The notes: generated by a model from the letters alone, not told the origin. Positions 4,316 through 50,595 are shown, counted from the stretch's first letter. The stretch: 64,000 bases of DNA from Candidatus Poseidoniaceae archaeon (GCA_016777125.1 JADHSC010000005.1:6345-70344); one strand, 5' to 3'. Numbers and translations are program-made.

Positions 4316-7300
4316 ATGGTCGAAGAAGCGATTCGTTTGATTCGCCCTGGCCTTAAGCAGCCAAAAAGAGGACGTCTCGCCTTTTTTCTTGTTCTTGTCA
4401 TGCTTATTCCCTTGTTCCAGCCAGTTCAGGCTGATATCACTGTACGGCAAGATGATTTTGACCTCTTAGAGACTCTCTCAGATGTGATGGCATTACAAGA
4501 ATCAAGCGATGATTCTGTTGTTGCAGTTGGTTCGTCAACCTCTGCTTTAGCCTTAGTTGAGGCTGCGAAGCGAGAAAGTCAAGCAGGTGATCCGCTCGAT
4601 GATGCTACGCAATATCTGAATAATGTCGAGTTAAGAGACACGACTCCGCTTGCTGAAGATCACCCGCGTCCGTACGAGATTCTTTTGGATACGAATTCTC
4701 AACCTGATGGTTGGCCAAATAATCTCCTCCAAACCTTATTTTCTCTTGAGGCCATTTCGTTAACAGACCCGCTTGCAGTGGGGATTAACACCTATGCGTT
4801 GTACGTTAATTTCTCAAGCAGAAATTCAGGGCCACAGTTTGAGACTTGGTCCTATGGGACGTTTACAGGTGAATTATTCGTAGGGGCTGATTTGGTTTTA
4901 TTCGAAAATTACATCGATATCGATGGAGATAACGTTGATGACGTTTCAATTTCGCTAACGGTACTTGGTCTGCTTCAACTCAACCAAGGGTTCGGATTTG
5001 AACCCCCATTTGATCCGTTCAACCCGTTTAGTGCAATTCCAGATACGATCTGGCTCCGACCTACATTCCAATGGAAGATTAACCAACTGAACGAGAATGA
5101 TCCCCTTTGGGATGAGATGGCTCACATGGAAATCTCTCTTCTGAAGGGTCTTGCATTTGACTCAGCAGTTCAAGATTCACAATCTTATGCACTTGTTCTT
5201 GACACACGATTGACTCAACCGCCAAGCGATTTCAGAGTCGAAGTTGGAATCCAAGAATTTAGGTTTAGTATCTCGAGCGCTGTCACAAACATTGTTCAAC
5301 TTCTCACGGATTTCATTGGAGGTGGTGCTTTACCAGCAGATGCGTTGACGTTAACATCCGTATCAGCACCATATGCTATCGGAATACGGAATCCTAATTC
5401 AGACGCATCCAATCTCCAAACCGAGTGTGATACGGACTATTATGACGTTATCAACGACCATGATGCAACAAGTGAGCTCCACAAATGTGGATTTGGAGTG
5501 GGAATCGGTTTCATCGAATTCGAGGAACTCGATGTAAACGGCCAAGCAGATATTATTGACATGGGATACATCGATGTTGGATTCCATCCTGAACGAGGTT
5601 CTAACGTATTGCCTGAAGAAGTTGATTTGACGCTAAGAAACGACAACCTTGGAGACAATACGTTCGATACTGTTGAACTGTACAGTGATACGGGGGCTGA
5701 TCTTTGGCTCCATTACTTCGAAGACCGAAGCAACACAATTGAAGGCGGAACCTTTGGAAACGTATCCGATTCTCGATTATGGATACGCGGCATACCTTCT
5801 GGAACACTCCCCCAAGAAGAAATAGATGCCATTTTCACGACAATTGGAGAAGCTCCAGGAAGTGTCAATCTTCCCGGAGATATGCCAGACAGACTTTCAT
5901 TTATTGTTGCGATAAAGAATTTCACTGGAGATTCAACTACAAACCAAAATGATCTCACCCTCCCCATCAATCCGGCAGCGCCACCGACAACACTGATTAT
6001 GATTGCAGGAACTGAACGAATTGATTCATTGACCTATGACTCAACAATGAAGCGCGGTGGCTATGATAACGATGTTAGTTCTATTCGAATATCCGTTTCG
6101 AATCTTCCTGAAGTTCTCGTTTTGAAAGGAAGTTTCCAATTATCCGAGACTGGTGTTTCTCGGGTCAATTTCAACAATCCTAACCTCAATACAATTTCTC
6201 AACTCCTTGACAATGCTCTGTTGACCTTGGTCGAAATTGTACTCGATTTGGGGTCTATACTCAACGGACTTCCTGATGCCATTGTCAGTACTGCTGGAAC
6301 CTCTGGCGGTTCCATCGAAGTCATCTGTTTGACTCAAGTAAAACAAACATGGAACGACGGTTCTGTACGCGGCCCGAGCAGTTTAGGGGAAATTGCACTA
6401 GCCATTGGCAGCAGTGACCATCCTTGGTTCACATCATCCGATCACATTCTCCTGTCCGAAGACACATCCATTGCCACGATCGCAGGAAGAGATGGCCCAG
6501 TCTCTCCTCTGGTCCCAATTGCCATGAGCATCCGTGTTTCAAACATCTCAAGGGTGTTCCAATCCTTTGATGGAATTACAAGCGAGAGGACGCTTGAATT
6601 AATTGGTCAACAGTCAGGCGCCCTCTTGATTGGGCACATCCGTCACAATGGTGATGATCTCGTCAATGTAACGAGCCAATCGGCCCGAATATCGAACCGA
6701 CCAGGCGATTTAACCGTTGTACAAGACCCGAGTAAACTCGTCTATTCTGCAAGTGAGCCGATTGGAACCATCACCTACGGAGGCCAAGAGGGTAAACAAC
6801 GCAATGCCATTCGACTCGAAGGCTTACCATCAGCCTTCCAATTGAATCTGGGTGATTCGGTTGGATTTGCTGCTGATACACCTATCGATTCGATCACGAT
6901 TCAAATGACCAACGCTACAACGCCGTTAACAATGGACGGAGACCATTTCAGATTCTGGGTTAACACAGATACATCAGAGGCTTCACTCAGTGCACGTATT
7001 TCCAACGTCCAGTCTGTTCAACGATTTTCTCCGCTTAATCCAAATGCAACTGGACCGGAAGGAAGCGCACGATATTCCTTGCAAAGACAAACATCAACTC
7101 CGTTCAATATTGTCATGGAAGATGTGAGTAACTATGACGACCCGTTCCTTGGTCTGAACGGAATGATGCGACTTGATCCATTGCCAGCAAATCTAGAAAT
7201 TGTTCTTCCGAGTGATGTTGATTCCAGTGGTATTGAATTACCTGATTTCGGTGAAGGAGAGGGCGTTGAAGCGCTCTCATTCTTCCTCGGCGACGTTGTT

Positions 7301-8986
7301 GATTTAGGCAGTTTAGTCAACGACCTTGTGTATGGCCTCGTGGTTGATATTGGCGACTCTTCAGGAGAACAAGCTGATGTTGCTTATGGATTGGACATGG
7401 TCACAGGTGAGAGTTTCGACCTTACAGCAGACATGCGCAAAGGATCTGTTCCTACTGGGACACCAGAATGGCAACATGGTCTTGACATACAGGCAACAGA
7501 GCGAACAGTACTCGACTTCAACCTCTCTCGTCTTCCAGAATTTACTCAATCAAGCCGAACAATCGTTTCCGATATTCTCAGCGATTACATCATCGATGAG
7601 TCCGAAGCTGAAATTATTCGCCAAGAATTCACTCAGGCAAATCTCAGCATCGCAAATACATTAATTGAGTCCCTCGATGATGGGTTACTTACAGAAAGAG
7701 AACTCAAAGGCATTGATGTAGCCTTGCTTGCAGAAGGCGGCATCACCTTTGAAACACGACGAAGTTGGCATGTTCACACATGGCTTCCTCAATTGCCTTC
7801 AGGACGTATTGAAATCGATTACATCTTCACTCTGGTTGATGAAGTTCCAACTTATGATTTCGAAATGAATCTCGAGGACTGGTTGCCAGCAGAAGAACGA
7901 TTCTATCTCACGATGGATGGAATTCAGAAATCTTCAGTGGAACTTCAGATATTTGGTTTAGATACATCAACGTCCCGAGATGTATCTGCCAAAGCATTAT
8001 TCTCACGTCAAGAGAATCTCACAGTCCCTCGTTTGTCCGTGGACATGAGCTATGATATCGGGCAACGATTGGATTATGTTTACGCGGTTTTCAACGATAA
8101 AGAGAACAAGGTACGTGCTGAAACCTTCCTCGTAGGTGTTCCTCAACAAACTCAGTTTTCAGCGACAATTGGAGACGTTTTGTTACTCGATGTTGATGTT
8201 CCTCAGGAATTCCGCGTAGGGGATACGAGTGTACAATCGATGATGATTCAACAGCATCGCTTTGTCGATGGATTCTGGTGGCCTTCTACAACATTCTTCA
8301 GAGATGTACCTTCTGAAATGCGCCTTGCAGCTGAGCCTGATCAACGACTCGACATTCGGGAAGAGACTTCCTTCCAAGGAATGATGACTCTGGATTATGC
8401 TTCAAATTCGGATAAGATGGATATGTATATCGAAGCATCTGGACGAGCTATTGACGCAAAAGGAGATACTCTGATGATGGCTACAAATTTACCACGAACA
8501 TTCAAGTTGGAAACAACAGATGATTGGGGTGTTCGAATCGTTAGTTCTGGTGATGGAGTCGAAGAACTCTATATGCGACAAACCAACGTTCCAGGAGCAC
8601 CAGGTGTGTTCCTCGATCGTCTTGAAATCATAGGAGAGGACCTCAAAGGCGCGACGATTACAATACATCGCCCACTCGGATATCCAGTCATCATAATCGA
8701 TGATATCACGACAGGTCGTCTTGTTTCAAGTGCAGAAGTTCATATTCAACCAGGTGAATATGTTCCGCTTATGGGCGATTTCGAAGTCGATGGACGAGGT
8801 GTTCTTCTCGATGCTCAGTTTACTGGGTTCATTCCAACCTCAACCTCGATAGGTGTGAATGGTGTCGTTACAGATTTATCAGTCGTCAGTACTCTGACTG
8901 GTGGTTCTGTTGAAACACGACACATATTGGTGGTTGAACCAATTACATCAGGTGTTGCATCTGTATTAGCAATGATCTTTGGGTGA
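4316..8986 (+). CDS. giant (1556 aa) highly acidic secreted protein, no recognisable catalytic domain
   Basis: Long uninterrupted ORF. N-terminal signal peptide (h-region LAFFLVLVMLIPLF, cleavage near VQA-D). Very acidic composition. Lies in the same orientation as the flanking surface-protein genes. Confidence 0.7.
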   Translation: MVEEAIRLIRPGLKQPKRGRLAFFLVLVMLIPLFQPVQADITVRQDDFDLLETLSDVMALQESSDDSVVAVGSSTSALALVEAAKRESQAGDPLDDATQYLNNVELRDTTPLAEDHPRPYEILLDTNSQPDGWPNNLLQTLFSLEAISLTDPLAVGINTYALYVNFSSRNSGPQFETWSYGTFTGELFVGADLVLFENYIDIDGDNVDDVSISLTVLGLLQLNQGFGFEPPFDPFNPFSAIPDTIWLRPTFQWKINQLNENDPLWDEMAHMEISLLKGLAFDSAVQDSQSYALVLDTRLTQPPSDFRVEVGIQEFRFSISSAVTNIVQLLTDFIGGGALPADALTLTSVSAPYAIGIRNPNSDASNLQTECDTDYYDVINDHDATSELHKCGFGVGIGFIEFEELDVNGQADIIDMGYIDVGFHPERGSNVLPEEVDLTLRNDNLGDNTFDTVELYSDTGADLWLHYFEDRSNTIEGGTFGNVSDSRLWIRGIPSGTLPQEEIDAIFTTIGEAPGSVNLPGDMPDRLSFIVAIKNFTGDSTTNQNDLTLPINPAAPPTTLIMIAGTERIDSLTYDSTMKRGGYDNDVSSIRISVSNLPEVLVLKGSFQLSETGVSRVNFNNPNLNTISQLLDNALLTLVEIVLDLGSILNGLPDAIVSTAGTSGGSIEVICLTQVKQTWNDGSVRGPSSLGEIALAIGSSDHPWFTSSDHILLSEDTSIATIAGRDGPVSPLVPIAMSIRVSNISRVFQSFDGITSERTLELIGQQSGALLIGHIRHNGDDLVNVTSQSARISNRPGDLTVVQDPSKLVYSASEPIGTITYGGQEGKQRNAIRLEGLPSAFQLNLGDSVGFAADTPIDSITIQMTNATTPLTMDGDHFRFWVNTDTSEASLSARISNVQSVQRFSPLNPNATGPEGSARYSLQRQTSTPFNIVMEDVSNYDDPFLGLNGMMRLDPLPANLEIVLPSDVDSSGIELPDFGEGEGVEALSFFLGDVVDLGSLVNDLVYGLVVDIGDSSGEQADVAYGLDMVTGESFDLTADMRKGSVPTGTPEWQHGLDIQATERTVLDFNLSRLPEFTQSSRTIVSDILSDYIIDESEAEIIRQEFTQANLSIANTLIESLDDGLLTERELKGIDVALLAEGGITFETRRSWHVHTWLPQLPSGRIEIDYIFTLVDEVPTYDFEMNLEDWLPAEERFYLTMDGIQKSSVELQIFGLDTSTSRDVSAKALFSRQENLTVPRLSVDMSYDIGQRLDYVYAVFNDKENKVRAETFLVGVPQQTQFSATIGDVLLLDVDVPQEFRVGDTSVQSMMIQQHRFVDGFWWPSTTFFRDVPSEMRLAAEPDQRLDIREETSFQGMMTLDYASNSDKMDMYIEASGRAIDAKGDTLMMATNLPRTFKLETTDDWGVRIVSSGDGVEELYMRQTNVPGAPGVFLDRLEIIGEDLKGATITIHRPLGYPVIIIDDITTGRLVSSAEVHIQPGEYVPLMGDFEVDGRGVLLDAQFTGFIPTSTSIGVNGVVTDLSVVSTLTGGSVETRHILVVEPITSGVASVLAMIFG

Positions 8987-42713: not shown

Positions 42714-44780
42714 ATGAAGGCTGTTGAGAACGTTGCAATCGTCGGTGCGGGGAACATGGGTTCTGGAATTGCCCAGAAAAGTGCTCAAGAAGCATTCAAC
42801 GTCCAAATGGTTGACCGAGAGGAACAATATGTGGCTCGTGGCCGTTCAATTATCGAGAATTTCCTGTCAGAAGCGATTGAACGCCGTATCTTTTCCCAAG
42901 CTGAAGTCGATGCAACATTGAATCGTATCACTGGAGTCATTGGGGTGGAGAATACCGCAGTTGACACAGATCTCGTTATCGAAGCAGTTTTCGAAGATTT
43001 TGACATCAAAACAGCAGTCTTTTCGACACTTGACGAAGTCTGTGGAGAAGATACAATTCTTGCATCCAATACCTCTTCGTTATCAGTCAACGCCCTTGCT
43101 GAAGCGACTGGGAGACCTGACCGTTTTGTTGGTCTCCATTTCTTTTACCATCCAGCAAAGAATAGACTTATCGAAGTCATTCCTGCTGAAACGACTTCGA
43201 AGGAAACCCTTGATCGAACCGTTCAATATTGCAGAACGCTCGGAAAAGTTGTCATCGTTTGCAAAGACAGACCTGGCTTTGTCGTCAATCGTTTCTTCGT
43301 TCCTTGGCTCAATGAAGCATGCCTTCTTCTTGAAGAGGGAGTTGCGAATGCGGCTCAAATCGATGCAATTTCTCGTAAAGCCTTCCGAATTGGATTAGGC
43401 CCATTCGGATTGATGAATTTGACAGGTCCACCTATCGCTCTTCATTCAACTGATTATCTCGCCGAGCAACTGAACACACCTCGATATGTTGGTGCACAGA
43501 ACCTTAGAGACTTAGTTGAAAACAATGCAATGTGGCCAATCGAAGAAGATGATTCCTTTAATCCTGAACAGTATACGACTGTTTCAGAACGTCTCCTTGG
43601 CGTCGTATTTGGCGTCGCTGCACAAATTGTTGATGAAGACATTTGTTTGATGGAAGACGTAGACCGTGGGGCTAAAGTTGGACTGCGATGGGCGAAGGGT
43701 CCATTCGAACTCATGAACCGTCTCGGTGTTGCAGAAGCATATCGTATGGCTTCAGCATATCAACAACTTACAGGCGAGACATGGAACCTTCCTGAGTTCT
43801 TTGAGCAACAAACATCTAATTGGGACTTTTCCTATGTTGATCTCCACACAGAAGATGGAATTGCAACCATTACCATTAATCGTCCAGAAGCAATGAACGC
43901 TTTGAATGAAGTCGTCGTTGAACAATTGACACAAGCAGTTCAAGCTGCTAATGCAAACGATGCAGTGTCAACAATTGTTCTCGATGGTGCTGGAAAAGCC
44001 TTCGTTGCAGGAGCAGATGTCAAATTCTTTGTCGATAAAATTCGTTCAGATTCAATCCCAGACATTGAAGTCTTTACAGAGAATGGACACGTACTCTTAT
44101 CGGCATTAGAAGACTCAAGCAAAACAACCGTTGCACTAACCACTGGATTGGCCCTCGGTGGTGGACTTGAACTTGCTCTCGCTTGTGATTTCCGCATTGG
44201 TACAAGAAGGACTCAATTTAGATTCCCAGAGACGAGTATTGGAATTTATCCAGCACTCGGTGGAACGCAACGTCCTGCTCGTATTGCAGGAAGAGAAATC
44301 GGTCGATGGGCAGTTCTTGCAGGGAACTTCATGAACGCTCAGACTGCAACAGATGTTGGACTTGTTACTCATTTGGTCGATGTGAACGAAGTAAACGCAA
44401 CCATTCAAACGATCCATTCAACTGGAAAACCAGCGGACAAATATCCTGGAACTCCATCGAATGGAAGCAGTCAGGTCGTACAGTTTGCTAAGAAATTCTA
44501 TGCAGATGAAAACATGGCGACACTTCTCGCAGGTGGATGTCCTGAAGGATTTGATGCTGAGGATAAAACAGTTGCACGCCAACTCAAGTCACTCAAATTT
44601 ACCGCACCAATTGGTCTTGCTATGGCCAGTGCTCGCATTGATGCAACAGGAACTACAACGCTTTCTAAGGGACTTGAAATGGAACTTGAAGGACTGAATC
44701 AAATCTTCTCTACAGAAGATGCTTTGGAAGGATTGAGTGCTCTTATCGAAGGACGTAGAGCAACATACAAGAATGCCTAA
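42714..44780 (+). CDS. bifunctional 3-hydroxyacyl-CoA dehydrogenase / enoyl-CoA hydratase (FadB-like, dehydrogenase-first order)
   Basis: N-terminal Rossmann VAIVGAGNMGSGIAQ plus the HACD C-domain. C-terminal crotonase fold ATITINRPEAMNALN...GAGKAFVAGADV. Confidence 0.85.
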   Translation: MKAVENVAIVGAGNMGSGIAQKSAQEAFNVQMVDREEQYVARGRSIIENFLSEAIERRIFSQAEVDATLNRITGVIGVENTAVDTDLVIEAVFEDFDIKTAVFSTLDEVCGEDTILASNTSSLSVNALAEATGRPDRFVGLHFFYHPAKNRLIEVIPAETTSKETLDRTVQYCRTLGKVVIVCKDRPGFVVNRFFVPWLNEACLLLEEGVANAAQIDAISRKAFRIGLGPFGLMNLTGPPIALHSTDYLAEQLNTPRYVGAQNLRDLVENNAMWPIEEDDSFNPEQYTTVSERLLGVVFGVAAQIVDEDICLMEDVDRGAKVGLRWAKGPFELMNRLGVAEAYRMASAYQQLTGETWNLPEFFEQQTSNWDFSYVDLHTEDGIATITINRPEAMNALNEVVVEQLTQAVQAANANDAVSTIVLDGAGKAFVAGADVKFFVDKIRSDSIPDIEVFTENGHVLLSALEDSSKTTVALTTGLALGGGLELALACDFRIGTRRTQFRFPETSIGIYPALGGTQRPARIAGREIGRWAVLAGNFMNAQTATDVGLVTHLVDVNEVNATIQTIHSTGKPADKYPGTPSNGSSQVVQFAKKFYADENMATLLAGGCPEGFDAEDKTVARQLKSLKFTAPIGLAMASARIDATGTTTLSKGLEMELEGLNQIFSTEDALEGLSALIEGRRATYKNA

Positions 44781-45019
44781 GCCCATTTGTCACTCATTGA
44801 TTGAATCGATTTGAGAACCGCTGATAGATCAATAGATTCCCCTTGTTCTTGAGCGAGGAGGATATTGTTCTCTACTGCATCAACCAGAACTTGCTCAGGT
44901 TCTTCGCCAAGCAGATCAGCAATCACTTCTTTCAGGGGCTTTGCCTTTCCTTGAAGAATAGCAATCTGTGCTCTTATCTTCTCATCATCGTCCTTTGGTG
45001 GACGCACGTTTGAACTCAT
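44777..45019 (-). CDS. small (80 aa) predicted helical acidic protein, translationally coupled to the JAMM gene
   Basis: ATGA overlap with the upstream JAMM gene. No Gly-Gly C-terminus. Composition suggests an all-helical fold. Confidence 0.45.
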   Translation of the reverse strand: MSSNVRPPKDDDEKIRAQIAILQGKAKPLKEVIADLLGEEPEQVLVDAVENNILLAQEQGESIDLSAVLKSIQSMSDKWA

Positions 45020-45561
45020 ACCAACACCTCGATTTTTATTTTATTATCTGCTTCGAGCCAGTGGTCCCAAGTAACAATGTCTTGATCAGTCCATGAAGAA
45101 AGAGGGCCAGTAACGCCAATCCGTTTTGTTGAATCCTCTCCCACCAGATTACGACTCTCTTTAACTCCAGGAGCCCCCAGAACAAGAGCACGGTCAAGGA
45201 TGCCTTGAGCGACTGCGAGGCTGTTCCTATCGGTTGAACTCCAATATGCATGGAATCCAGGATGGGTGTGGACCCACAAACGGAACGGGGCCATCATACC
45301 TACAGGTGGGCGTAATGGGACTCTCCCAGGTGACCCCCAATCGATTTGGATTGCTCCATTCGCATCGATGAGTACGGATGTTTCAAGCCCTGCAATCAAT
45401 GAAAGGTTGTACACCAAATCCCACCGTCCATGCTCAGCAGCTCGCCTTTGGACGAGAAGAAGTTCCTCAGTCTCAACCGCCTTCGCTTCGGCTTGGAGAC
45501 AAGCAGCCATCCAATGTTCGAATGTCAACCCCATTTCCTCAAGTTTTGTTACTGGAATCAA
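45016..45561 (-). CDS. JAMM/MPN+ family zinc metalloprotease (deubiquitinase-like)
   Basis: WVHTHPGFHAYWSSTD matches the HxH-x7-S-x2-D JAMM motif, with Glu residues upstream. 4-bp overlap with the E1-like gene. Confidence 0.7.
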   Translation of the reverse strand: MIPVTKLEEMGLTFEHWMAACLQAEAKAVETEELLLVQRRAAEHGRWDLVYNLSLIAGLETSVLIDANGAIQIDWGSPGRVPLRPPVGMMAPFRLWVHTHPGFHAYWSSTDRNSLAVAQGILDRALVLGAPGVKESRNLVGEDSTKRIGVTGPLSSWTDQDIVTWDHWLEADNKIKIEVLV

Positions 45562-46187
45562 GCGATCACCTCTGGGAATTTGAGTTCTCCAAACATGATG
45601 CTACCCATTCGTTCTTTCAAAACGGGTTGATTTCGTAATTGCCCAATGAGCCATGTCGCACCAGCAGCGGCAGCATTGACGTAGCCGAATTGAATGTTTC
45701 CAGCCTCGAGTGCTCCCTTAATTTGACAACTTGCAGGTTCATGGTCTGGTGTCATCATTGTTACTAATTCCGTATGGGATTCACTTGTGAAGAACACGTG
45801 CCCATCCCCTGTAGACCTCATATCAATCCACGGAACAGTAGAAGCATGGACCAATCGCCTAGGAAGGGGACGATCGACGCCTATGAGGACAAAATCAAAC
45901 CCTTCAAGTTGTTCTGCGTTTCTCAGATTCTCAGGAAAAGAATGACATGTTACAAATTCAAAATCAGTAAATCGTTGAGCAAGCACTTCTGTCTTTGCTT
46001 TGCCAATATCAGACTTTGTAAACCGTTGATGACCAAGATTTGTGGCTTCGACGATATCTCCGTCCATGAGCGTAATGGTGCATGTTCTCTGAATTCGTTC
46101 AAGCGCTGGAGCGAGAAGTTCGATGGTCATGCCACCAATTCCGCCAACACCTACGAGCAATATATTCGGGTTCCCCTGTTGTTCCAT
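45558..46187 (-). CDS. minimal E1-like adenylyltransferase (ThiF/MoeB/UbaA superfamily)
   Basis: ILLVGVGGIGG is the Rossmann GxGxxG. DGDIVEATNLGHQRF corresponds to the DxDxVExSNLNRQ motif. It is only 209 aa, with no CxxC zinc motifs and no rhodanese domain. Confidence 0.65.
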   Translation of the reverse strand: MEQQGNPNILLVGVGGIGGMTIELLAPALERIQRTCTITLMDGDIVEATNLGHQRFTKSDIGKAKTEVLAQRFTDFEFVTCHSFPENLRNAEQLEGFDFVLIGVDRPLPRRLVHASTVPWIDMRSTGDGHVFFTSESHTELVTMMTPDHEPASCQIKGALEAGNIQFGYVNAAAAGATWLIGQLRNQPVLKERMGSIMFGELKFPEVIA

Positions 46188-46223
46188 GAACAGTTCAATC
46201 TTCGACTGTTTATGAACCGAAAT

Positions 46224-47234
46224 CTAATTTTGGATTAATGGGAGTTTTTTGGTTGGGGGTGCAATACCCAAATCTTCAGGGAAAAACATCTCTGGATCAG
46301 GAAGGGGAATTGGTACAATCTCTCGGCCGATAAGGGCCACACGACTCGGACGACTTTCTGATAGAACTCGACGATCAATCTGCGGTGCAAGTTCATTTGA
46401 AAAGTTGAGAATATCTTCATGGCTTGGCATGTTTTCCATAGAGAGGTTTTCTCTGCTATGGCCAACATAGACGTAACCCTTCGCCTCAATCCAATCTGGA
46501 TCTGCACGATTATCAAGAGCAGCAAACTGCTTGATGTGTTCTGAAGACATATTGATTCCCTTCATCATGGTATGCCGACATACGATTCGAGTATCGAGGC
46601 TTGGAAGCAAATCGATGGTTTTCTCAAATTGATCCCACGCACCATTCCCCCATTTTGGTCGACAGACCTCATCGAACACCTGCTTGTTTGGAGCATCAAC
46701 TGAAACATAGAGTTGAGTTGGAAGCGTATCCAATTTCTCCAAGACCTTTGGAAGTGTTCCATTGGTAACAAGCATTGTTGTCATTCCATGCTTATGGCAC
46801 AGTTCCATGTATTCACCAAGTTTGGTATAGAGGGTTGGCTCTCCGTTGAGAGAAATTGCAACATGTTTCGGGTCCTGAGCTTCTTTGAATTTTTCAGGGG
46901 TAACCTTGTCATTTCCTCCAAAGCCAGAGAGCAATCGTCGCTGTGCTCGTACACTTTCGTAGAGGAGTTCAAGCGGATCTTGGTCGGTTAATTCAAGCGT
47001 ATCCATATGTGGTTCTCGCCAGCAATATGTGCAAGCAAGATTGCATTGGTCTACAACAGGAGACATCTGCATGCATGTATGGCTCTTTACTCCATAGAAT
47101 GTCCCTTTGTAACAGGAACGATCACGGAGAAGTGATTCTTTTGTCCAGTGGCATGTCTTCACGCCACCATGTTCTCCAACAATGTGGTAGCGTTGCTTTT
47201 GCAATTTGGCTTTCAATCCTGGATCCATACCCAT
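46224..47234 (-). CDS. taw1: tRNA 4-demethylwyosine synthase (Taw1/TYW1-like radical-SAM enzyme)
   Basis: YHIVGEHGGVKTCHWTK...CYKGTFYGVKSHTCMQMSPVVDQCNLACTYCWR shows the auxiliary Cys cluster plus the CxxxCxxC radical-SAM motif. Confidence 0.8.
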   Translation of the reverse strand: MGMDPGLKAKLQKQRYHIVGEHGGVKTCHWTKESLLRDRSCYKGTFYGVKSHTCMQMSPVVDQCNLACTYCWREPHMDTLELTDQDPLELLYESVRAQRRLLSGFGGNDKVTPEKFKEAQDPKHVAISLNGEPTLYTKLGEYMELCHKHGMTTMLVTNGTLPKVLEKLDTLPTQLYVSVDAPNKQVFDEVCRPKWGNGAWDQFEKTIDLLPSLDTRIVCRHTMMKGINMSSEHIKQFAALDNRADPDWIEAKGYVYVGHSRENLSMENMPSHEDILNFSNELAPQIDRRVLSESRPSRVALIGREIVPIPLPDPEMFFPEDLGIAPPTKKLPLIQN

Positions 47235-47332: not shown

Positions 47333-49465
47333 TCATCGGCGAAGTAATGGTAAGAGGGCATTTGCAGCCTTTTCAGCAGCATTTGCAACATCATCAAGTC
47401 GTTGCAAGACACGATACATGTGCATTGCAGCCAGTGGTTCATCATCACCGTTGGTGAAGACATATGCTGCGGCCTTTGCTTCAACACCATCTGCTTCGTG
47501 TTCAATGAGATTGACTTCACGAATCAATGCATAGACTTCATCGACTCCAGCCTTCGTTCTGCCGCTGATGTGGTATTGACGTAAAGCCTCAATCAGATCT
47601 TCATACTTAGCCACTGTTTGAGAAACAATCTCAGCCATTTCAACCAAATTCTCTCGTGCAGTTTCATCTTCCATGAGTGGGCGGAAGGAGAGTTGTTCTG
47701 CTACGTTTTGTGCGTAATCAGCAATTCTGTCCTGGCGACTTACCATGTAGAGGAATGAATCTGAGTCGGCAGCGATACCAAATCTCAGGTCTTGACTTGC
47801 GAGTTCTCGAATCTCAGACTTAATTTTGTCAGCAGTAAATTCTGACTCAACAGTCTCTTCGATTTCTTGACTTGCATCTTCACCAGCACTCGCTTTCTTG
47901 ACAGCAGCAACCATTTTCTCGACGGTTAATTCAACGGCTTCTGCATGCTTGTGGAACAGATCGAATGGAGTTGCCCCATCCTCCTTTGAACTTCCAGCAT
48001 CGGAAAGGGCTTCTTCGACATAAATTTCATTGTCACGAGTTTTCCACATTGCATAGCCAACAGTCATGAAGGCAATTGGAAGAAGAATAATCATTTTGAG
48101 ATTATCTCCGCCTGATGCGATGTAAATTGTAGCAGCACCAAAAGCAGCGACTGGAACACTCGCAACCCAAGAAGCAGCAATCTTTCCAAAGACTCTGAAA
48201 TCCACAGCCTTGGCTCCACCTGCTAATCCTACGCCTACAACGGCACCAACGAGAGTGTGTGTTGTCGATACTGGGACTGCAAGGAAGGGCATAGAGAAGA
48301 TGAGAATTGTTGTTGCAGCTCCAAATTCAGCAGCGAAACCACGTGTTGGAGTAATGTCTGTGATCTTCTTTCCAATCGTTTCCATGACTCTCCAACCCCA
48401 TGTCATCACACCAATAGCAATACCAGCAGAACCGAGAAGAACAAGCCAGAGAGGAATGTCAGCACTTTCCATCAATTGGCCACCATCTTTGGAGAGAACC
48501 TGCCATACTGCAGCCATTGGTCCAATTGCATTGGAACGGTCGTTTGCACCGTGTGCGAATGCGACGTATGCTGCTGTGATAATTTGTAACCAAACGAAGA
48601 TACGTTCTACGCCTCGGAAACCATTGCTTTCTTCATTGATGTCTATTCTCTTGAGAATAAGGAAGAGACAGAATGATGCAATTGCGCCGATTAATCCAGC
48701 GAGCATAAGTGAGTTGATTGGAAGCCATGCAGCCTCTGCAAACGGATCCCATACTCCATTTTCTTTAGCAGGCAACCAGTCTGCTTTGTCATCGATCCAT
48801 TCATTTTTATCGGCCCTAGAGAAAAATCCCTTCAGCGCTTTGAATTGTAGAGCAAGTCCCAAAACAAAGAACGTCGGGAAAGCAAGAATTGGCGCCAACC
48901 ATAGGGAACGTTCCTCAGGATTATCAGAATCTAAGATGAGTTTCTTGATGATGTAGAATGAGAAGAAAGCAAGTAATGCCCCCATTATCGGGCTTGCAAC
49001 CCAACTCATGACGACCTGGCCGACCTTCTCCCAGTTGATGTAGTCTGTACCGTGATCAACTTCCAGAACCAATCCTACACCTATGATTCCACCAATGATG
49101 GAATGTGTTGTCGATACAGGTAGTCCAAATCGTGTTGCGATGGTAAGCCATGTTGCAGCAGCCATCATTGCGGCGATGAAACCAAAGGCAATATCTTGTG
49201 AAATCTTTTGACTAACGCCGCCTTCTTGATCGAAATCAATGACGAGAATGCCTTTGCGAACTGTATCAGTGACCGCATCACCGGCAAAAAATGCACCTGC
49301 GAATTCAAAAATAGCAGCAATAATGACCGCTTGCCTGAGTGTTAATGCACGAGAACCAACAGAGGTACCCATTGCATTTGCGACATCATTCGCACCGATG
49401 TTCCAGGCCATATAGGCGCATACAATTAACGCTAGAGCAATTACAACGACTGTGATTGGTTCCAT
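47333..49465 (-). CDS. PiT-family inorganic phosphate transporter fused to a C-terminal cytoplasmic PhoU/DUF47-like domain
   Basis: NIGANDVANAMGTSVGSRALT and a second GANDRSNAIGPMAAV half (PHO4 repeats). About 230-aa helical C-terminal domain. Confidence 0.8.
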   Translation of the reverse strand: MEPITVVVIALALIVCAYMAWNIGANDVANAMGTSVGSRALTLRQAVIIAAIFEFAGAFFAGDAVTDTVRKGILVIDFDQEGGVSQKISQDIAFGFIAAMMAAATWLTIATRFGLPVSTTHSIIGGIIGVGLVLEVDHGTDYINWEKVGQVVMSWVASPIMGALLAFFSFYIIKKLILDSDNPEERSLWLAPILAFPTFFVLGLALQFKALKGFFSRADKNEWIDDKADWLPAKENGVWDPFAEAAWLPINSLMLAGLIGAIASFCLFLILKRIDINEESNGFRGVERIFVWLQIITAAYVAFAHGANDRSNAIGPMAAVWQVLSKDGGQLMESADIPLWLVLLGSAGIAIGVMTWGWRVMETIGKKITDITPTRGFAAEFGAATTILIFSMPFLAVPVSTTHTLVGAVVGVGLAGGAKAVDFRVFGKIAASWVASVPVAAFGAATIYIASGGDNLKMIILLPIAFMTVGYAMWKTRDNEIYVEEALSDAGSSKEDGATPFDLFHKHAEAVELTVEKMVAAVKKASAGEDASQEIEETVESEFTADKIKSEIRELASQDLRFGIAADSDSFLYMVSRQDRIADYAQNVAEQLSFRPLMEDETARENLVEMAEIVSQTVAKYEDLIEALRQYHISGRTKAGVDEVYALIREVNLIEHEADGVEAKAAAYVFTNGDDEPLAAMHMYRVLQRLDDVANAAEKAANALLPLLRR

Positions 49466-49545
49466 ATAGTGTTCTATCGATATGAGGTATATATTCCATA
49501 CTCCATATATTCTATATAGGACTATTTAGACCGTAACCTGATACC
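49466..49545. promoter_or_regulatory. AT-rich divergent promoter region between PiT and the AbrB-PhoU regulator, with a direct repeat ATATATTC(C/T)ATA x2
   Basis: Repeats at 49489-49500 and 49505-49516, 16 nt apart. Multiple TATA-like elements. Confidence 0.4.
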
Positions 49546-50595
49546 ATGGCATCTGGTCCCGGCGATACTTCTTTGCGCAAAATCCAATCAACTGGCGGAG
49601 GGACCTTCACCCTAAGTTTACCAAAACAGTGGGTTACCAAGCAGCATCTGAAAACAAGAGATGCCATTAAGATCGATTGGAGACCGAGCGGAGCGTTACG
49701 ATTGACACCCGTGGAATTTGATAATACGACTGTGAGAACAATAATCTACGATTTAGAAAACCTTCCTGAAGAGAGTCTATTCGACCACCTTATGGGAGGC
49801 TATATCGCAGGCGCTGATATCATAAAAATACGATTTAAGTCTCAGAATGAGAGAATTTTGCGACAACAAATCCGCCGGTTTCTAAGGGCTACTCGCGGCT
49901 TTGAAATGTATTCCGAAGAGGACAATGAATTTGAATTACGGTGCCTTCTCAACACAGGAGATATGCCGATTTCTTCAAGCCTGAATCGTATGTTTTTACA
50001 ACTCTCCAGTTCAATACGAGACATTCTAAGTGTGTTCCAAGGAGAGGATCCAACGTTTCTTGATGATTTGGATGAGCGTGAAAGCGAAATTGATGCTCTT
50101 CTCCATCTCATAGAGCGCCAAGTAAGACTGCTGGTTGACAATTATTCCATCGCAACCAAACTGAATATGACGCGAATTCAATCCCTTGAATCTGGGAATC
50201 TTGCGCGCTCCCTCGAACGCATGATGGACCATGCAGTTCTTATTGGAACAAATGTGAAAGTCAATTACGAGATATTAGCTGATAAAGAGAACAACTCCTC
50301 ACTGAACAAATTACCTGAATGGCAGAACTCGATCAAAGAATTGATGATCAATATACGAATAAGAGACGCCAAGCGAATAGAAGAAGCACGTACAAATCTA
50401 AAGATCATTCAAAATGATCTGATGGAAAACGAGCGAAAACTCTTCCAAAACCCTAAAAAGTATTCTTGGGCACTTCATGAATTATCTGTTTCAGAATCTA
50501 TTCGCCGACTGTGTGCTTATGCCCGGGACTTTGGAGAGTCCCTGATTAATATGAATGCCTACAAAGGAATAAGGCGTGACAGGAAAGGTGTTTAA
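49546..50595 (+). CDS. phosphate uptake regulator: N-terminal AbrB/SpoVT-like swapped-hairpin domain plus PhoU domains
   Basis: IQSTGGGTFTLSLPKQWV (AbrB-like) followed by PhoU-like helical repeats. Markedly AT-rich codon usage. Confidence 0.7.
   Translation: MASGPGDTSLRKIQSTGGGTFTLSLPKQWVTKQHLKTRDAIKIDWRPSGALRLTPVEFDNTTVRTIIYDLENLPEESLFDHLMGGYIAGADIIKIRFKSQNERILRQQIRRFLRATRGFEMYSEEDNEFELRCLLNTGDMPISSSLNRMFLQLSSSIRDILSVFQGEDPTFLDDLDERESEIDALLHLIERQVRLLVDNYSIATKLNMTRIQSLESGNLARSLERMMDHAVLIGTNVKVNYEILADKENNSSLNKLPEWQNSIKELMINIRIRDAKRIEEARTNLKIIQNDLMENERKLFQNPKKYSWALHELSVSESIRRLCAYARDFGESLINMNAYKGIRRDRKGV

What the first reader, a model, noticed from the sequence alone, without database searches (positions are those of the whole stretch)
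44777..47234. Co-oriented Taw1, minimal E1-like, JAMM and small helical protein: a candidate non-canonical ubiquitin-like/sulfur-carrier processing module
Four minus-strand genes: Taw1 radical-SAM tRNA-wyosine enzyme; a 209-aa ThiF/MoeB-type E1 (GxGxxG plus the DxDxVExxNLxxQ analogue, no CxxC or rhodanese); a JAMM protease with an exact HxH-x7-S-x2-D motif; and an 80-aa acidic helical protein. The last three overlap by 4 bp each (ATGA), so they are translationally coupled. E1+JAMM pairs are the adenylation and deconjugation halves of prokaryotic Ubl systems (SAMP/UbaA/HvJAMM, CysO/Mec, and more recently Bil/CBASS-type antiviral systems). Here the usual beta-grasp GG-ending carrier and any E2 are missing, and a small helical protein is coupled instead. 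Placement next to a tRNA-modification radical-SAM gene hints at tRNA modification, as in SAMP2/TtuB-type thiolation, or at a novel conjugation or defence function.
Basis: partly seen in the sequence, partly recalled or inferred. Interest (0 to 1): 0.65.

Follow-up and report, generated by a model that had tools for sequence, protein, structure and literature searches.

The report
Ubiquitin-like activating/processing operon of marine archaea
Three tightly coupled genes in this marine Group II archaeon (a minimal E1 activator, a JAMM peptidase and a small helical partner) look like the enzyme half of an apparently undescribed ubiquitin-like system: its ubiquitin-like protein is encoded elsewhere as a polyubiquitin-style tandem precursor, and viruses of these archaea carry their own copy.

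Summary
All four ORFs and the quoted motifs are in the window. Only the last three genes form a unit. The order E1-JAMM-small protein, with 4-nt overlaps, holds in every one of 86 Poseidoniales loci with enough flank. A TATA-like box about 25-30 nt upstream of the E1 start is conserved, pointing to a separate leaderless transcript. Taw1 is adjacent only in the window's clade, so it is a syntenic neighbour.

The "missing" GG carrier exists. A new family of about 70-aa proteins ending in GG plus 1-2 residues sits beside homologous E1/JAMM genes in Thalassarchaeaceae, in a Thermoplasmatota lineage with an E1-JAMM fusion, and in about 95-kb magrovirus-like viral contigs. In Poseidoniaceae it is a di- or tri-repeat ORF at another locus; one MAG carries both loci.

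The E1 is closest to PRTRC-type ThiF and shares an invariant Ser-Cys. The JAMM active site is intact. The 80-aa protein models as four helices, not a beta-grasp, and its role is unknown.

Best reading: JAMM trims the poly-Ubl precursor and E1 activates the exposed Gly-Gly for SAMP-like conjugation. This is a new variant of a known kind. No biochemistry exists, and the Ubl gene of the window's own genome was not seen.

The parts
45558..46187 (-). Minimal E1-like adenylating enzyme (209 aa, ThiF fold, PRTRC-ThiF-like clade). It has no N-terminal Arg-finger helices. The canonical Arg of NLxRQ is His53. Ser153-Cys154 in the shortened crossover-loop region is invariant.
   Evidence: Pfam ThiF 4.5e-17. 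Best NCBIfam hit is PRTRC_ThiF, 2.3e-13, below cutoff. hhalign to PRTRC ThiF: 98.3%, E 2.4e-14 over 172 columns. Family invariants. PDB profile hits (MccB, Uba1, Uba4, Cap2, MoeB) cover only the N-terminal half.
45016..45561 (-). JAMM/MPN+ metallopeptidase (181 aa, TTG start overlapping the E1 stop). It has three N-terminal helices and a complete E60...H98xH100-x7-S108-xx-D111 site.
44777..45019 (-). Small acidic four-helix protein (80 aa). Its start overlaps the JAMM stop (ATGA). The invariant N-terminal motif is R6-x-P8-x-D10-xx-E13. The C-terminus is variable and has no GG.
46209..46216 (-). TATA-like box (TTCATAAA) about 22-29 nt upstream of the E1 ATG, in the 36-nt spacer after the Taw1 stop. 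Putative archaeal promoter of a leaderless E1-JAMM-small transcript.
   Evidence: Sequence. An A/T-rich box at the same distance is conserved upstream of E1 in all clades, whatever the upstream gene. Inferred function; no transcript data.

Best explanation
The three genes at 44777-46187(-) are a self-contained, probably leaderless operon conserved across Marine Group II archaea (order Poseidoniales). They encode the enzyme module of a ubiquitin-like (Ubl) protein system.

The substrate is a new family of about 70-aa proteins ending in ...P-G-[IL]-[VI]-G-G. In Poseidoniaceae it is made as a head-to-tail di- or tri-repeat precursor from a separate locus (beside rpoP and an RFC gene). In sister lineages and in magrovirus-like viruses it is a single copy ending in GG plus 1-2 extra residues, encoded next to the E1 and JAMM genes.

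Proposed mechanism (inferred, not shown):
1. The JAMM metallopeptidase cuts after each Gly-Gly and releases mature Ubl monomers.
2. The minimal E1 adenylates the exposed C-terminal glycine and probably takes it onto the invariant crossover-loop Cys154 as a thioester.
3. The Ubl is then transferred to protein lysines without a recognisable E2, as in archaeal SAMPylation, and JAMM can reverse the linkage.
4. The 80-aa helical protein is made in fixed ratio with JAMM by start/stop overlap. It is most likely a non-catalytic subunit (assembly, regulation or target selection) of the E1/JAMM complex, not the modifier.

Taw1 is only a chromosomal neighbour.
For: Shown:
- Operon order and 4-nt overlaps hold in 84/86 and 83/83 loci from the 80 best of 142 matching species-level genomes plus 6 metagenome contigs.
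- The same trio occurs in a different neighbourhood in Thalassarchaeaceae.
- E1 and JAMM are fused into one 405-408-aa protein, still followed by an overlapping 86-aa helical ORF.
- The JAMM site is complete and the fold is JAB/MPN.
- The E1 keeps GxGGxG, D42, N50, K65 and D105. Ser-Cys154 is invariant across the archaeal, viral and PRTRC ThiF sequences aligned.
- The Ubl family sits immediately upstream of the fusion gene in at least 9 loci (ends VPSLQGG-H), upstream of zn385-E1 in 3 MGIIb loci (ends LIGG-WL), and 3.5-5 kb upstream of E1 in at least 9 of the first 45 viral loci tabulated (e.g. IVGG-DY).
- Poly-Ubl ORFs have 2-3 repeats, each ending MPG[IL][VI]GG, with 5-9-aa linkers and a 1-2-aa tail.
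- One Poseidoniaceae MAG (GCA_030742975.1) holds both the tri-Ubl (contig ..23.1) and a PiT-Taw1-epimerase-E1-JAMM-small-FadB locus matching the window's gene order apart from the inserted epimerase gene (contig ..21.1).
- The only PDB sequences matched by the Ubl profile at E<=10 among the 60 listed (of 76) are ubiquitins, aligned in register to residues 41-76 and ending at GG.

By analogy from papers: JAMM enzymes process Ubl precursors in Caldiarchaeum (PMC6043591) and in Bub systems (PMC11601596).
Against: - No biochemistry or transcript data exist.
- The Ubl gene of the window's own genome was not seen: there is none in the 64 kb. Co-occurrence with the operon is shown for one MAG only.
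- The beta-grasp fold of the Ubl is inferred. Single-ubiquitin E-values are 0.25-1.5, hhalign to ThiS and to PRTRC protein C is not significant, and there is no Pfam hit.
- The E1 lacks the N-terminal Arg-finger helices and has His in place of the canonical ATP-binding Arg, so its chemistry could differ.
- No E2 was identified, so conjugation rather than sulfur-carrier use is a judgement.
- Nothing tested assigns a role to the small protein. No homologue of it was detected in the viral versions.
Confidence: 0.6

Rival explanations
1. Sulfur-carrier pathway. The E1 adenylates the GG-ending protein so that it becomes a thiocarboxylate donating sulfur for tRNA thiolation or cofactor synthesis (ThiS/MoaD/SAMP2/TtuB-like), and JAMM only matures the carrier. 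Placement next to Taw1 would then reflect tRNA modification.
For: The E1 is of ThiF/MoeB type with weak hits to ThiF, MoeB, UbaA and TcdA models. It has an invariant crossover-loop Cys like ThiF. Taw1 is adjacent in this clade. Archaeal Ubls are known to be dual-use (PMC2948915).
Against: All NCBIfam hits are far below their cutoffs. No rhodanese, cysteine desulfurase or PP-loop ATPase is in any of the neighbourhoods seen. Taw1 adjacency is not conserved, and E1 has its own promoter-like box. Tandem poly-Ubl precursors and virus-encoded copies fit a stoichiometric protein modifier better than a catalytic sulfur carrier.
Confidence: 0.15
2. Antiviral or conflict system. The module is a defence pathway of the Bil/CBASS/Bub kind that tags viral proteins, and the viral homologues are counter-defence or hijacked copies.
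For: The closest relatives of the E1 are ThiF proteins of PRTRC and E2-JAB-ThiF cassettes on plasmids. There are weak PADLOC hits to Cap2 and BilD. Homologous Ubl, E1 and JAMM genes are in 330 viral contigs that also carry TFB and chaperonin genes typical of MGII viruses (PMC11706807).
Against: The operon is fixed in one syntenic chromosomal position (next to FadB/HxlR) across Poseidoniaceae and was found in 142 species-level genomes, not in variable islands. No effector, E2 or sensor gene was identified: nearby ORFs tested have no Pfam or PADLOC match. PADLOC hits cover only the Rossmann segment. This reading overlaps with the best explanation on mechanism and differs only in biological role.
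Confidence: 0.12
3. The 80-aa helical protein is itself the E1 substrate: a non-beta-grasp modifier (Pup-like in spirit) or a RiPP-like precursor activated at its C-terminus or at an acidic side chain, as MccB and PaaA do with peptides.
For: It is translationally coupled and universally present. Its last residue is small or aliphatic (A/V/I) in nearly all copies. The best PDB sequence hits of the E1 profile are MccB chains. Its N-terminal tail carries invariant D10 and E13.
Against: The C-terminus is not conserved (KWA, CWV, AQA, NEHA, SSV, AWQ...) and is modelled as helix to the end. A cognate GG-ending family is genomically linked to the same enzymes. The E1 has no RRE/peptide-clamp domain (209 aa, starting 7 residues before GxGxxG). 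No homologue of the small protein was detected in the viral systems.
Confidence: 0.08

Closest known systems
Archaeal SAMP / UbaA / HvJAMM1 system (Haloferax volcanii)
   Same: It is archaeal. It combines a single ThiF-type E1, a JAMM/MPN+ peptidase and a small GG-ending protein, with no recognisable E2 or E3. It is chromosomal and housekeeping-like.
   Different: The E1 here is much shorter (209 aa versus a 270-position UbaA model). It has no CxxC pairs and no N-terminal Arg finger, and it scores far below the UbaA model cutoff (24 versus 450 bits). The Ubl family has no ThiS/MoaD Pfam match and occurs as tandem repeats. There is an obligatory small helical partner. Enzyme genes are fused or overlapping. 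Viral homologues exist.
PRTRC system / operon type 6d of Iyer et al. 2006 (Ubl, JAB, E1-like ThiF, E2-like and alpha-helical protein on plasmids and ICEs)
   Same: Its ThiF is the closest E1 relative (hhalign 98.3%, 31% identity, shared invariant Ser-Cys motif). The set includes JAB, a small Ubl and an uncharacterised alpha-helical protein (PMC1779556).
   Different: There is no E2-like protein B and no ParB, and the context is not a mobile element. The JAMM aligns with PRTRC protein A only around the HxH motif. The small helical protein and the Ubl show no detectable similarity to PRTRC protein E, protein C or the 73-aa neighbour. The canonical ATP-binding Arg is replaced by His.
Bacterial Bub (6E) and Bil pathways; Caldiarchaeum Ub/Rpn11
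   Same: A JAMM peptidase matures a Ubl precursor by cutting after Gly-Gly. JAB and E1 can be fused (BubCD). Poly-Ubl proteins occur in 6E operons (PMC11601596, PMC1779556, PMC6043591).
   Different: The domain order of the fusion is E1-JAMM, not JAB-E1. No E2, BubE/DUF6527 or RING component is present. The E1 keeps a conserved Cys, whereas BubCD lacks one. The system is in the core genome of an archaeal order rather than sporadic defence islands.
Type II CBASS Cap2/Cap3
   Different: There is no E2 domain, no CD-NTase and no effector. The hits cover only E1 residues 5-115.

Membership tests
Prokaryotic Ubl-E1-JAMM systems (SAMP/UbaA/JAMM1 type) | ThiF-fold adenylation domain with the nucleotide-binding GxGxxG and Asp/Lys/Asp residues | tested here: met
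   Pfam ThiF 4.5e-17. G13/G15/G16/G18, D42, K65 and D105 are invariant. The canonical Arg is His53 and there are no N-terminal Arg-finger helices.
Prokaryotic Ubl-E1-JAMM systems (SAMP/UbaA/JAMM1 type) | JAMM/MPN+ peptidase with E...HxH-x7-S-xx-D on a JAB fold | tested here: met
Prokaryotic Ubl-E1-JAMM systems (SAMP/UbaA/JAMM1 type) | Small beta-grasp protein ending in Gly-Gly, genomically or functionally linked | tested here: inconclusive
   None in the window. A GG-ending family is adjacent to homologous modules in three other settings and is present in a Poseidoniaceae MAG with the same operon.
Prokaryotic Ubl-E1-JAMM systems (SAMP/UbaA/JAMM1 type) | Ubl adenylation and isopeptide conjugates or thiocarboxylate formation | not testable with these tools
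   Requires biochemistry or proteomics.
PRTRC system (TIGR03734-03742) | PRTRC-type ThiF protein | tested here: inconclusive
   It is the best NCBIfam hit but scores 50 bits against a cutoff of 145. hhalign gives 98.3% with the shared Ser-Cys motif. This indicates a sister clade, not an equivalog.
PRTRC system (TIGR03734-03742) | Companion genes ParB and proteins A, B (E2-like), C (Ubl), E; location on a plasmid or ICE | tested here: not met
   No ParB or E2-like gene is in any of the 86 loci with the window's gene order. The position is conserved and chromosomal. Comparisons to proteins A, C and E are not significant.
Type II CBASS (Cap2/Cap3) and Bil (BilABCD) | E2 domain or protein, plus a CD-NTase (CBASS) or BilA Ubl adjacent | tested here: not met
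   PADLOC hits are confined to the Rossmann part of the E1. JAMM and the small protein have no hit. No E2 or CD-NTase is in the flanks.
ThiF/ThiS, MoeB/MoaD sulfur-carrier enzymes | Equivalog-level match; Zn-binding CxxC pairs and/or a rhodanese domain; thiamine or Moco genes nearby | tested here: not met
   ThiF scores 38.8 bits against 275, and MoeB 19.8 against 376. There are no CxxC pairs and no rhodanese domain. No such neighbours were seen.
MccB/PaaA peptide-modifying E1-like enzymes | N-terminal peptide-clamp/RRE domain and a short precursor peptide | tested here: not met
   The E1 begins 7 residues before GxGxxG. The PDB alignment to MccB covers only MccB residues 114-216.
TcdA (tRNA ct6A dehydratase) | Equivalog-level match to TcdA | tested here: not met
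   26.4 bits against a cutoff of 304. The PDB hit (E about 1e-4) covers the N-terminal half only.

The most novel reading that the evidence does not exclude
Marine Group II archaea and their magroviruses each run their own copy of an E2-less ubiquitin-like conjugation pathway. It would be fed by a polyubiquitin-style tandem precursor that a dedicated JAMM cleaves, with the 80-aa helical protein acting as a new kind of E1/JAMM cofactor. Host and virus versions would compete over which proteins get tagged, giving an archaeal counterpart of the ubiquitin-centred virus-host contests known in eukaryotes and, recently, in bacteria.
Probability: 0.3. Interest if true: 0.85.

Novelty: new variant of a known kind. 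Interest (0 to 1): 0.62.

Why it matters
Poseidoniales are among the most abundant archaea in the surface ocean and remain uncultured, so conserved operons of unknown function are some of the few available handles on their cell biology.

If the reading is right, three things follow:
- An archaeal order carries a ubiquitin-like system with a eukaryote-style feature: a head-to-tail poly-Ubl precursor that needs a processing peptidase. It is built from protein families mostly absent from Pfam, NCBIfam, PADLOC and PHROGs; only the E1 reaches a curated threshold.
- It offers a very small E1 (209 aa) and natural E1-JAMM fusions as compact models of Ubl activation without an E2.
- Archaeal viruses encode their own Ubl/E1/JAMM set, which opens a testable question about ubiquitin-like tagging in archaeal virus-host interactions.

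No paper in the searchable library links MGII or magroviruses to ubiquitin-like systems.

Tried and rejected
- Small protein versus PRTRC protein E, a PRTRC 73-aa neighbour and the viral 102-aa ORF: no similarity.
- Small protein versus the 86-aa ORF of the fusion lineage: only a colinear weak alignment, E 0.028. Homology is left open.
- The afdb50 fold library was unavailable.
- Burroughs 2009 (PMC2732565) is not held.
Pfam: nothing.
- Showing the tri-Ubl and the operon on one long contig, or in more MAGs by record names, gave no further matches.
- Accessory proteins (zn385, c319, p625, p236, p166, p238): no Pfam or PADLOC family. The viral 384-aa protein is only marginally similar to them, E 0.04.
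- Taw1 as an operon member: rejected.
- Mobile defence island: rejected on synteny.


Full report
**What is in the window.**
- The 336-aa protein is a bona fide TYW1/Taw1 (TIGR03972, 3.8e-111, above cutoff).
- The 209-aa protein matches Pfam ThiF (4.5e-17).
- The 80-aa protein has no family in Pfam, NCBIfam, PADLOC or PHROGs.
- One detail needs correcting. The E1/JAMM overlap in this window is cTTGA (TTG start), not ATGA. The JAMM/small overlap is ATGA as stated.

**Organism and conservation.** Named homologues are almost all Poseidoniales / Marine Group II archaea.
- A scan of one genome per species found the JAMM gene in 142 genomes. The 80 listed are Poseidoniales or unclassified marine archaeal MAGs, apart from two MAGs labelled as bacteria, which I take to be mis-binned.
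- In 86 loci the order E1-JAMM-small-(convergent FadB) is constant.
- The E1/JAMM junction is a 4-nt overlap in 84/86 loci, and the JAMM/small junction in 83/83.
- The small ORF is under coding constraint: substitutions fall 30/21/49% on codon positions 1/2/3. A gene caller's antisense 67-aa ORF in L004 is therefore probably spurious.

**Taw1 is a neighbour, not a member.** Taw1 abuts E1 only in the window's clade. Elsewhere an epimerase or glycosyltransferase lies between them, or Taw1 is out of range. In every clade an A/T-rich TATA-like box sits about 22-30 nt upstream of the E1 start codon, whatever gene precedes it. In the window it is TTCATAAA at 46216-46209. That spacing is what an archaeal promoter of a leaderless mRNA would give; this is an inference, with no transcript data.

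**The E1.**
- The family keeps GxGGxG, D42xD44xVE, N50, K65, D105 and an RPxPRR stretch.
- It starts only 7 residues before the glycine loop, so it lacks the N-terminal helices that carry the Arg finger in MoeB/ThiF.
- The canonical Arg of NLxRQ is His53.
- Its closest relatives are the ThiF proteins of PRTRC cassettes and of E2-JAB-ThiF cassettes on plasmids. hhalign gives 98.3%, E 2.4e-14, over 172 columns.
- In an alignment of MGIIa, MGIIb, fusion, viral and PRTRC sequences, Ser153-Cys154 in the shortened crossover-loop region is invariant. This makes Cys154 a candidate thioester or acyl-persulfide residue; that is an inference.
- All equivalog models (ThiF, MoeB, UbaA, TcdA, PRTRC_ThiF) score far below their cutoffs.

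**The small protein.**
- Across 73 distinct sequences the invariant residues are N-terminal (R6, P8, D10, E13, A17, A20, G24).
- The C-terminus varies (KWA, CWV, AQA, NEHA, SSV, AWQ) and is helical to the end. That argues against C-terminal activation by an E1.

**Relatives outside Poseidoniaceae reveal the missing piece.** A profile search with the JAMM family found three groups of diverged relatives.
- Thalassarchaeaceae (MGIIb).
- E1-JAMM fusion proteins of 405-408 aa from marine Thermoplasmatota.
- A group that proved to be viral.

The neighbourhoods are as follows.
- Fusion lineage: p166 - p236 - a 71-aa ORF ending ...VQIVPSLQGG-H - E1-JAMM fusion - an overlapping 86-aa acidic helical ORF - a TFB-like protein.
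- MGIIb: E1-JAMM-small (80 aa, N-terminal VRPPEDDDEK like the window's) sits next to ribonucleotide reductase instead of FadB. In three loci it is preceded by a homologous 104-aa ORF ending ...LTPGLIGG-WL and by a 385-aa Zn-ribbon protein.

The two GG-ending proteins are homologous (E 4.5e-13). They share a conserved TGH motif, a Trp and the P-x-[LI]-x-G-G end.

**Poly-Ubl genes in Poseidoniaceae.** A metagenome scan with this family returned single ORFs of 140-215 aa made of two or three head-to-tail repeats.
- Each repeat ends MPG[IL][VI]GG. Linkers are 5-9 residues and the final tail is 1-2 residues (N, L, MC).
- The gene lies in a conserved housekeeping position: class II aldolase(-) | poly-Ubl | RpoP | RFC small subunit.
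- One copy is QF479_02550 of Poseidoniaceae MAG GCA_030742975.1 (contig JASLTJ010000023.1). The same assembly carries PiT-Taw1-epimerase-E1-JAMM(QF479_02355)-small-FadB on contig ..21.1. This matches the window's gene order apart from the inserted epimerase gene.
- The Ubl profile matches ubiquitins and nothing else among the 60 PDB sequences listed (76 matched at E<=10). The alignment is in register with ubiquitin residues 41-76 and ends at GG. Single ubiquitins score only E 0.25-1.5, so the beta-grasp fold remains an inference.
- The window itself contains no member of this family. That matches the separate-locus arrangement, but it means the Ubl of this particular genome was not observed.

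**Viral copies.** The viral-looking JAMM group maps to 330 IMG/VR contigs, many 90-97 kb long.
- Nearly all of the 80 loci kept have an E1 homologue upstream of the JAMM: 42 of the 45 tabulated, 0.1-2.0 kb upstream. It is 26-35% identical to the cellular E1s and, in L140, carries an xSCQ motif.
- At least 9 of those 45 loci have a Ubl homologue 3.5-5 kb upstream of the E1, for example one ending IVGG-DY.
- Contig L140 also encodes a TFB-like protein, a GroES-like protein and a chaperonin (phrog_5725 groEL, 3.4e-113). A chaperonin is a reported magrovirus feature (PMC11706807), so these are most likely viruses of MGII archaea.
- No homologue of the 80-aa protein was detected there.

**Literature.** No paper in the searchable library combines magrovirus with ubiquitin. 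MGII genome papers do not mention ubiquitin-like proteins.

**Mechanism proposed.**
- Shown: the gene linkage; intact catalytic motifs in JAMM and most of those in E1; the GG-ending and tandem architecture of the linked protein family.
- Inferred by analogy with CsRpn11/CsUb, BubCD/BubAB and HvJAMM1 (PMC6043591, PMC11601596, PMC4443979): JAMM cuts after GG to mature the precursor. E1 adenylates the C-terminal Gly and may form a Cys154 thioester. Transfer to targets then occurs without a recognisable E2, as in SAMPylation, and JAMM may also deconjugate.
- I favour conjugation over sulfur carriage for three reasons. Poly-precursors and viral copies suit a stoichiometric tag. No sulfurtransferase is linked. 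The E1's nearest relatives belong to cassettes annotated with E2-like and Ubl genes (PRTRC proteins B and C; an E2 family D-JAB-ThiF cassette).
- I take the small helical protein to be a non-catalytic partner made in fixed ratio with JAMM. This is the weakest part of the model.
- A Cys-rich accessory family may supply E2/E3-like or targeting functions. It lies after the small ORF in 12 MGIIa loci, appears as zn385 in MGIIb and as p625 in the fusion lineage. It has no known domain and is not adjacent in the window.

**Classification.** It works like the archaeal SAMP/UbaA/JAMM system and its E1 is related to PRTRC ThiF. It fails the membership tests for PRTRC (no ParB or E2-like protein B; not on a mobile element), for CBASS/Bil (no E2 or CD-NTase), for ThiF/MoeB (scores below cutoff; no CxxC pairs or rhodanese), for MccB/PaaA (no RRE) and for TcdA. 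I file it as a new variant of the known kind "prokaryotic Ubl-E1-JAMM system".

Noticed in passing
L106:128-766; L107:136-774; L109:134-769; L110:528-1175; L108:~422-844; L114:10001-10648: Single ORFs made of two or three head-to-tail Ubl repeats, each ending MPG[IL][VI]GG, with short linkers and a 1-2-residue tail. They form a polyubiquitin-like precursor gene in Poseidoniaceae, always beside rpoP and an RFC small-subunit gene. A PAC2 (proteasome assembly chaperone-like) gene lies about 4 kb upstream in L114/L115.
   Followed up: partly
L139-L218 (IMG/VR contigs), e.g. L140:1333-6606: 330 viral contigs, many about 95 kb and carrying TFB-like and chaperonin genes (so probably magroviruses), encode homologues of the E1 and JAMM. 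At least 9 of 45 tabulated loci also encode the GG-ending Ubl. None of these viral proteins has a PHROG family except weak hits for the E1.
   Followed up: partly
L090:6001-7227; L100:1876-3099; L104:574-1794 (also P0317, P0330): Natural E1-JAMM fusion proteins of 405-408 aa in a marine Thermoplasmatota lineage. They are preceded by a 71-aa Ubl ending GG-H and followed by an overlapping 86-aa acidic helical ORF and a TFB-like gene.
   Followed up: yes
L079:6795-7754; L081:~6799-7743; L094:749-1906; L090:8635-10512(-): An uncharacterised Cys-rich/Zn-ribbon protein family (shared C-terminal motifs GHHG, G[DE]SG, CIxxE, ND[IL]) is linked to the module at different positions in three lineages. It has no Pfam or PADLOC hit. 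It is a candidate E2/E3-like or targeting component and is not adjacent in the window.
   Followed up: partly
L093:4954-5175: One MGIIb locus has a 73-aa Myb/SANT-like HTH ORF inserted between E1 and JAMM, with a duplicated ...GGDE* end. It resembles the 102-aa ORF just upstream of the viral JAMM (pairwise E 2e-4), hinting at exchange between viral and cellular versions.
   Followed up: partly
L004:7209-7412(-) versus L004:7166-7408(+): Public gene calls place a 67-aa ORF on the opposite strand, or call a truncated 66-aa version, where the conserved 80-aa small protein (TTG start) is encoded. The small gene is therefore mis-annotated or missed in part of the public data.
   Followed up: yes
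window 47333-50595: Upstream of Taw1 lies a 710-aa PiT-type phosphate/sulfate permease fused to a PhoU-like domain, followed divergently by a 349-aa protein with a weak PhoU match. The PiT-Taw1 pair is syntenic across Poseidoniaceae loci.
   Followed up: no
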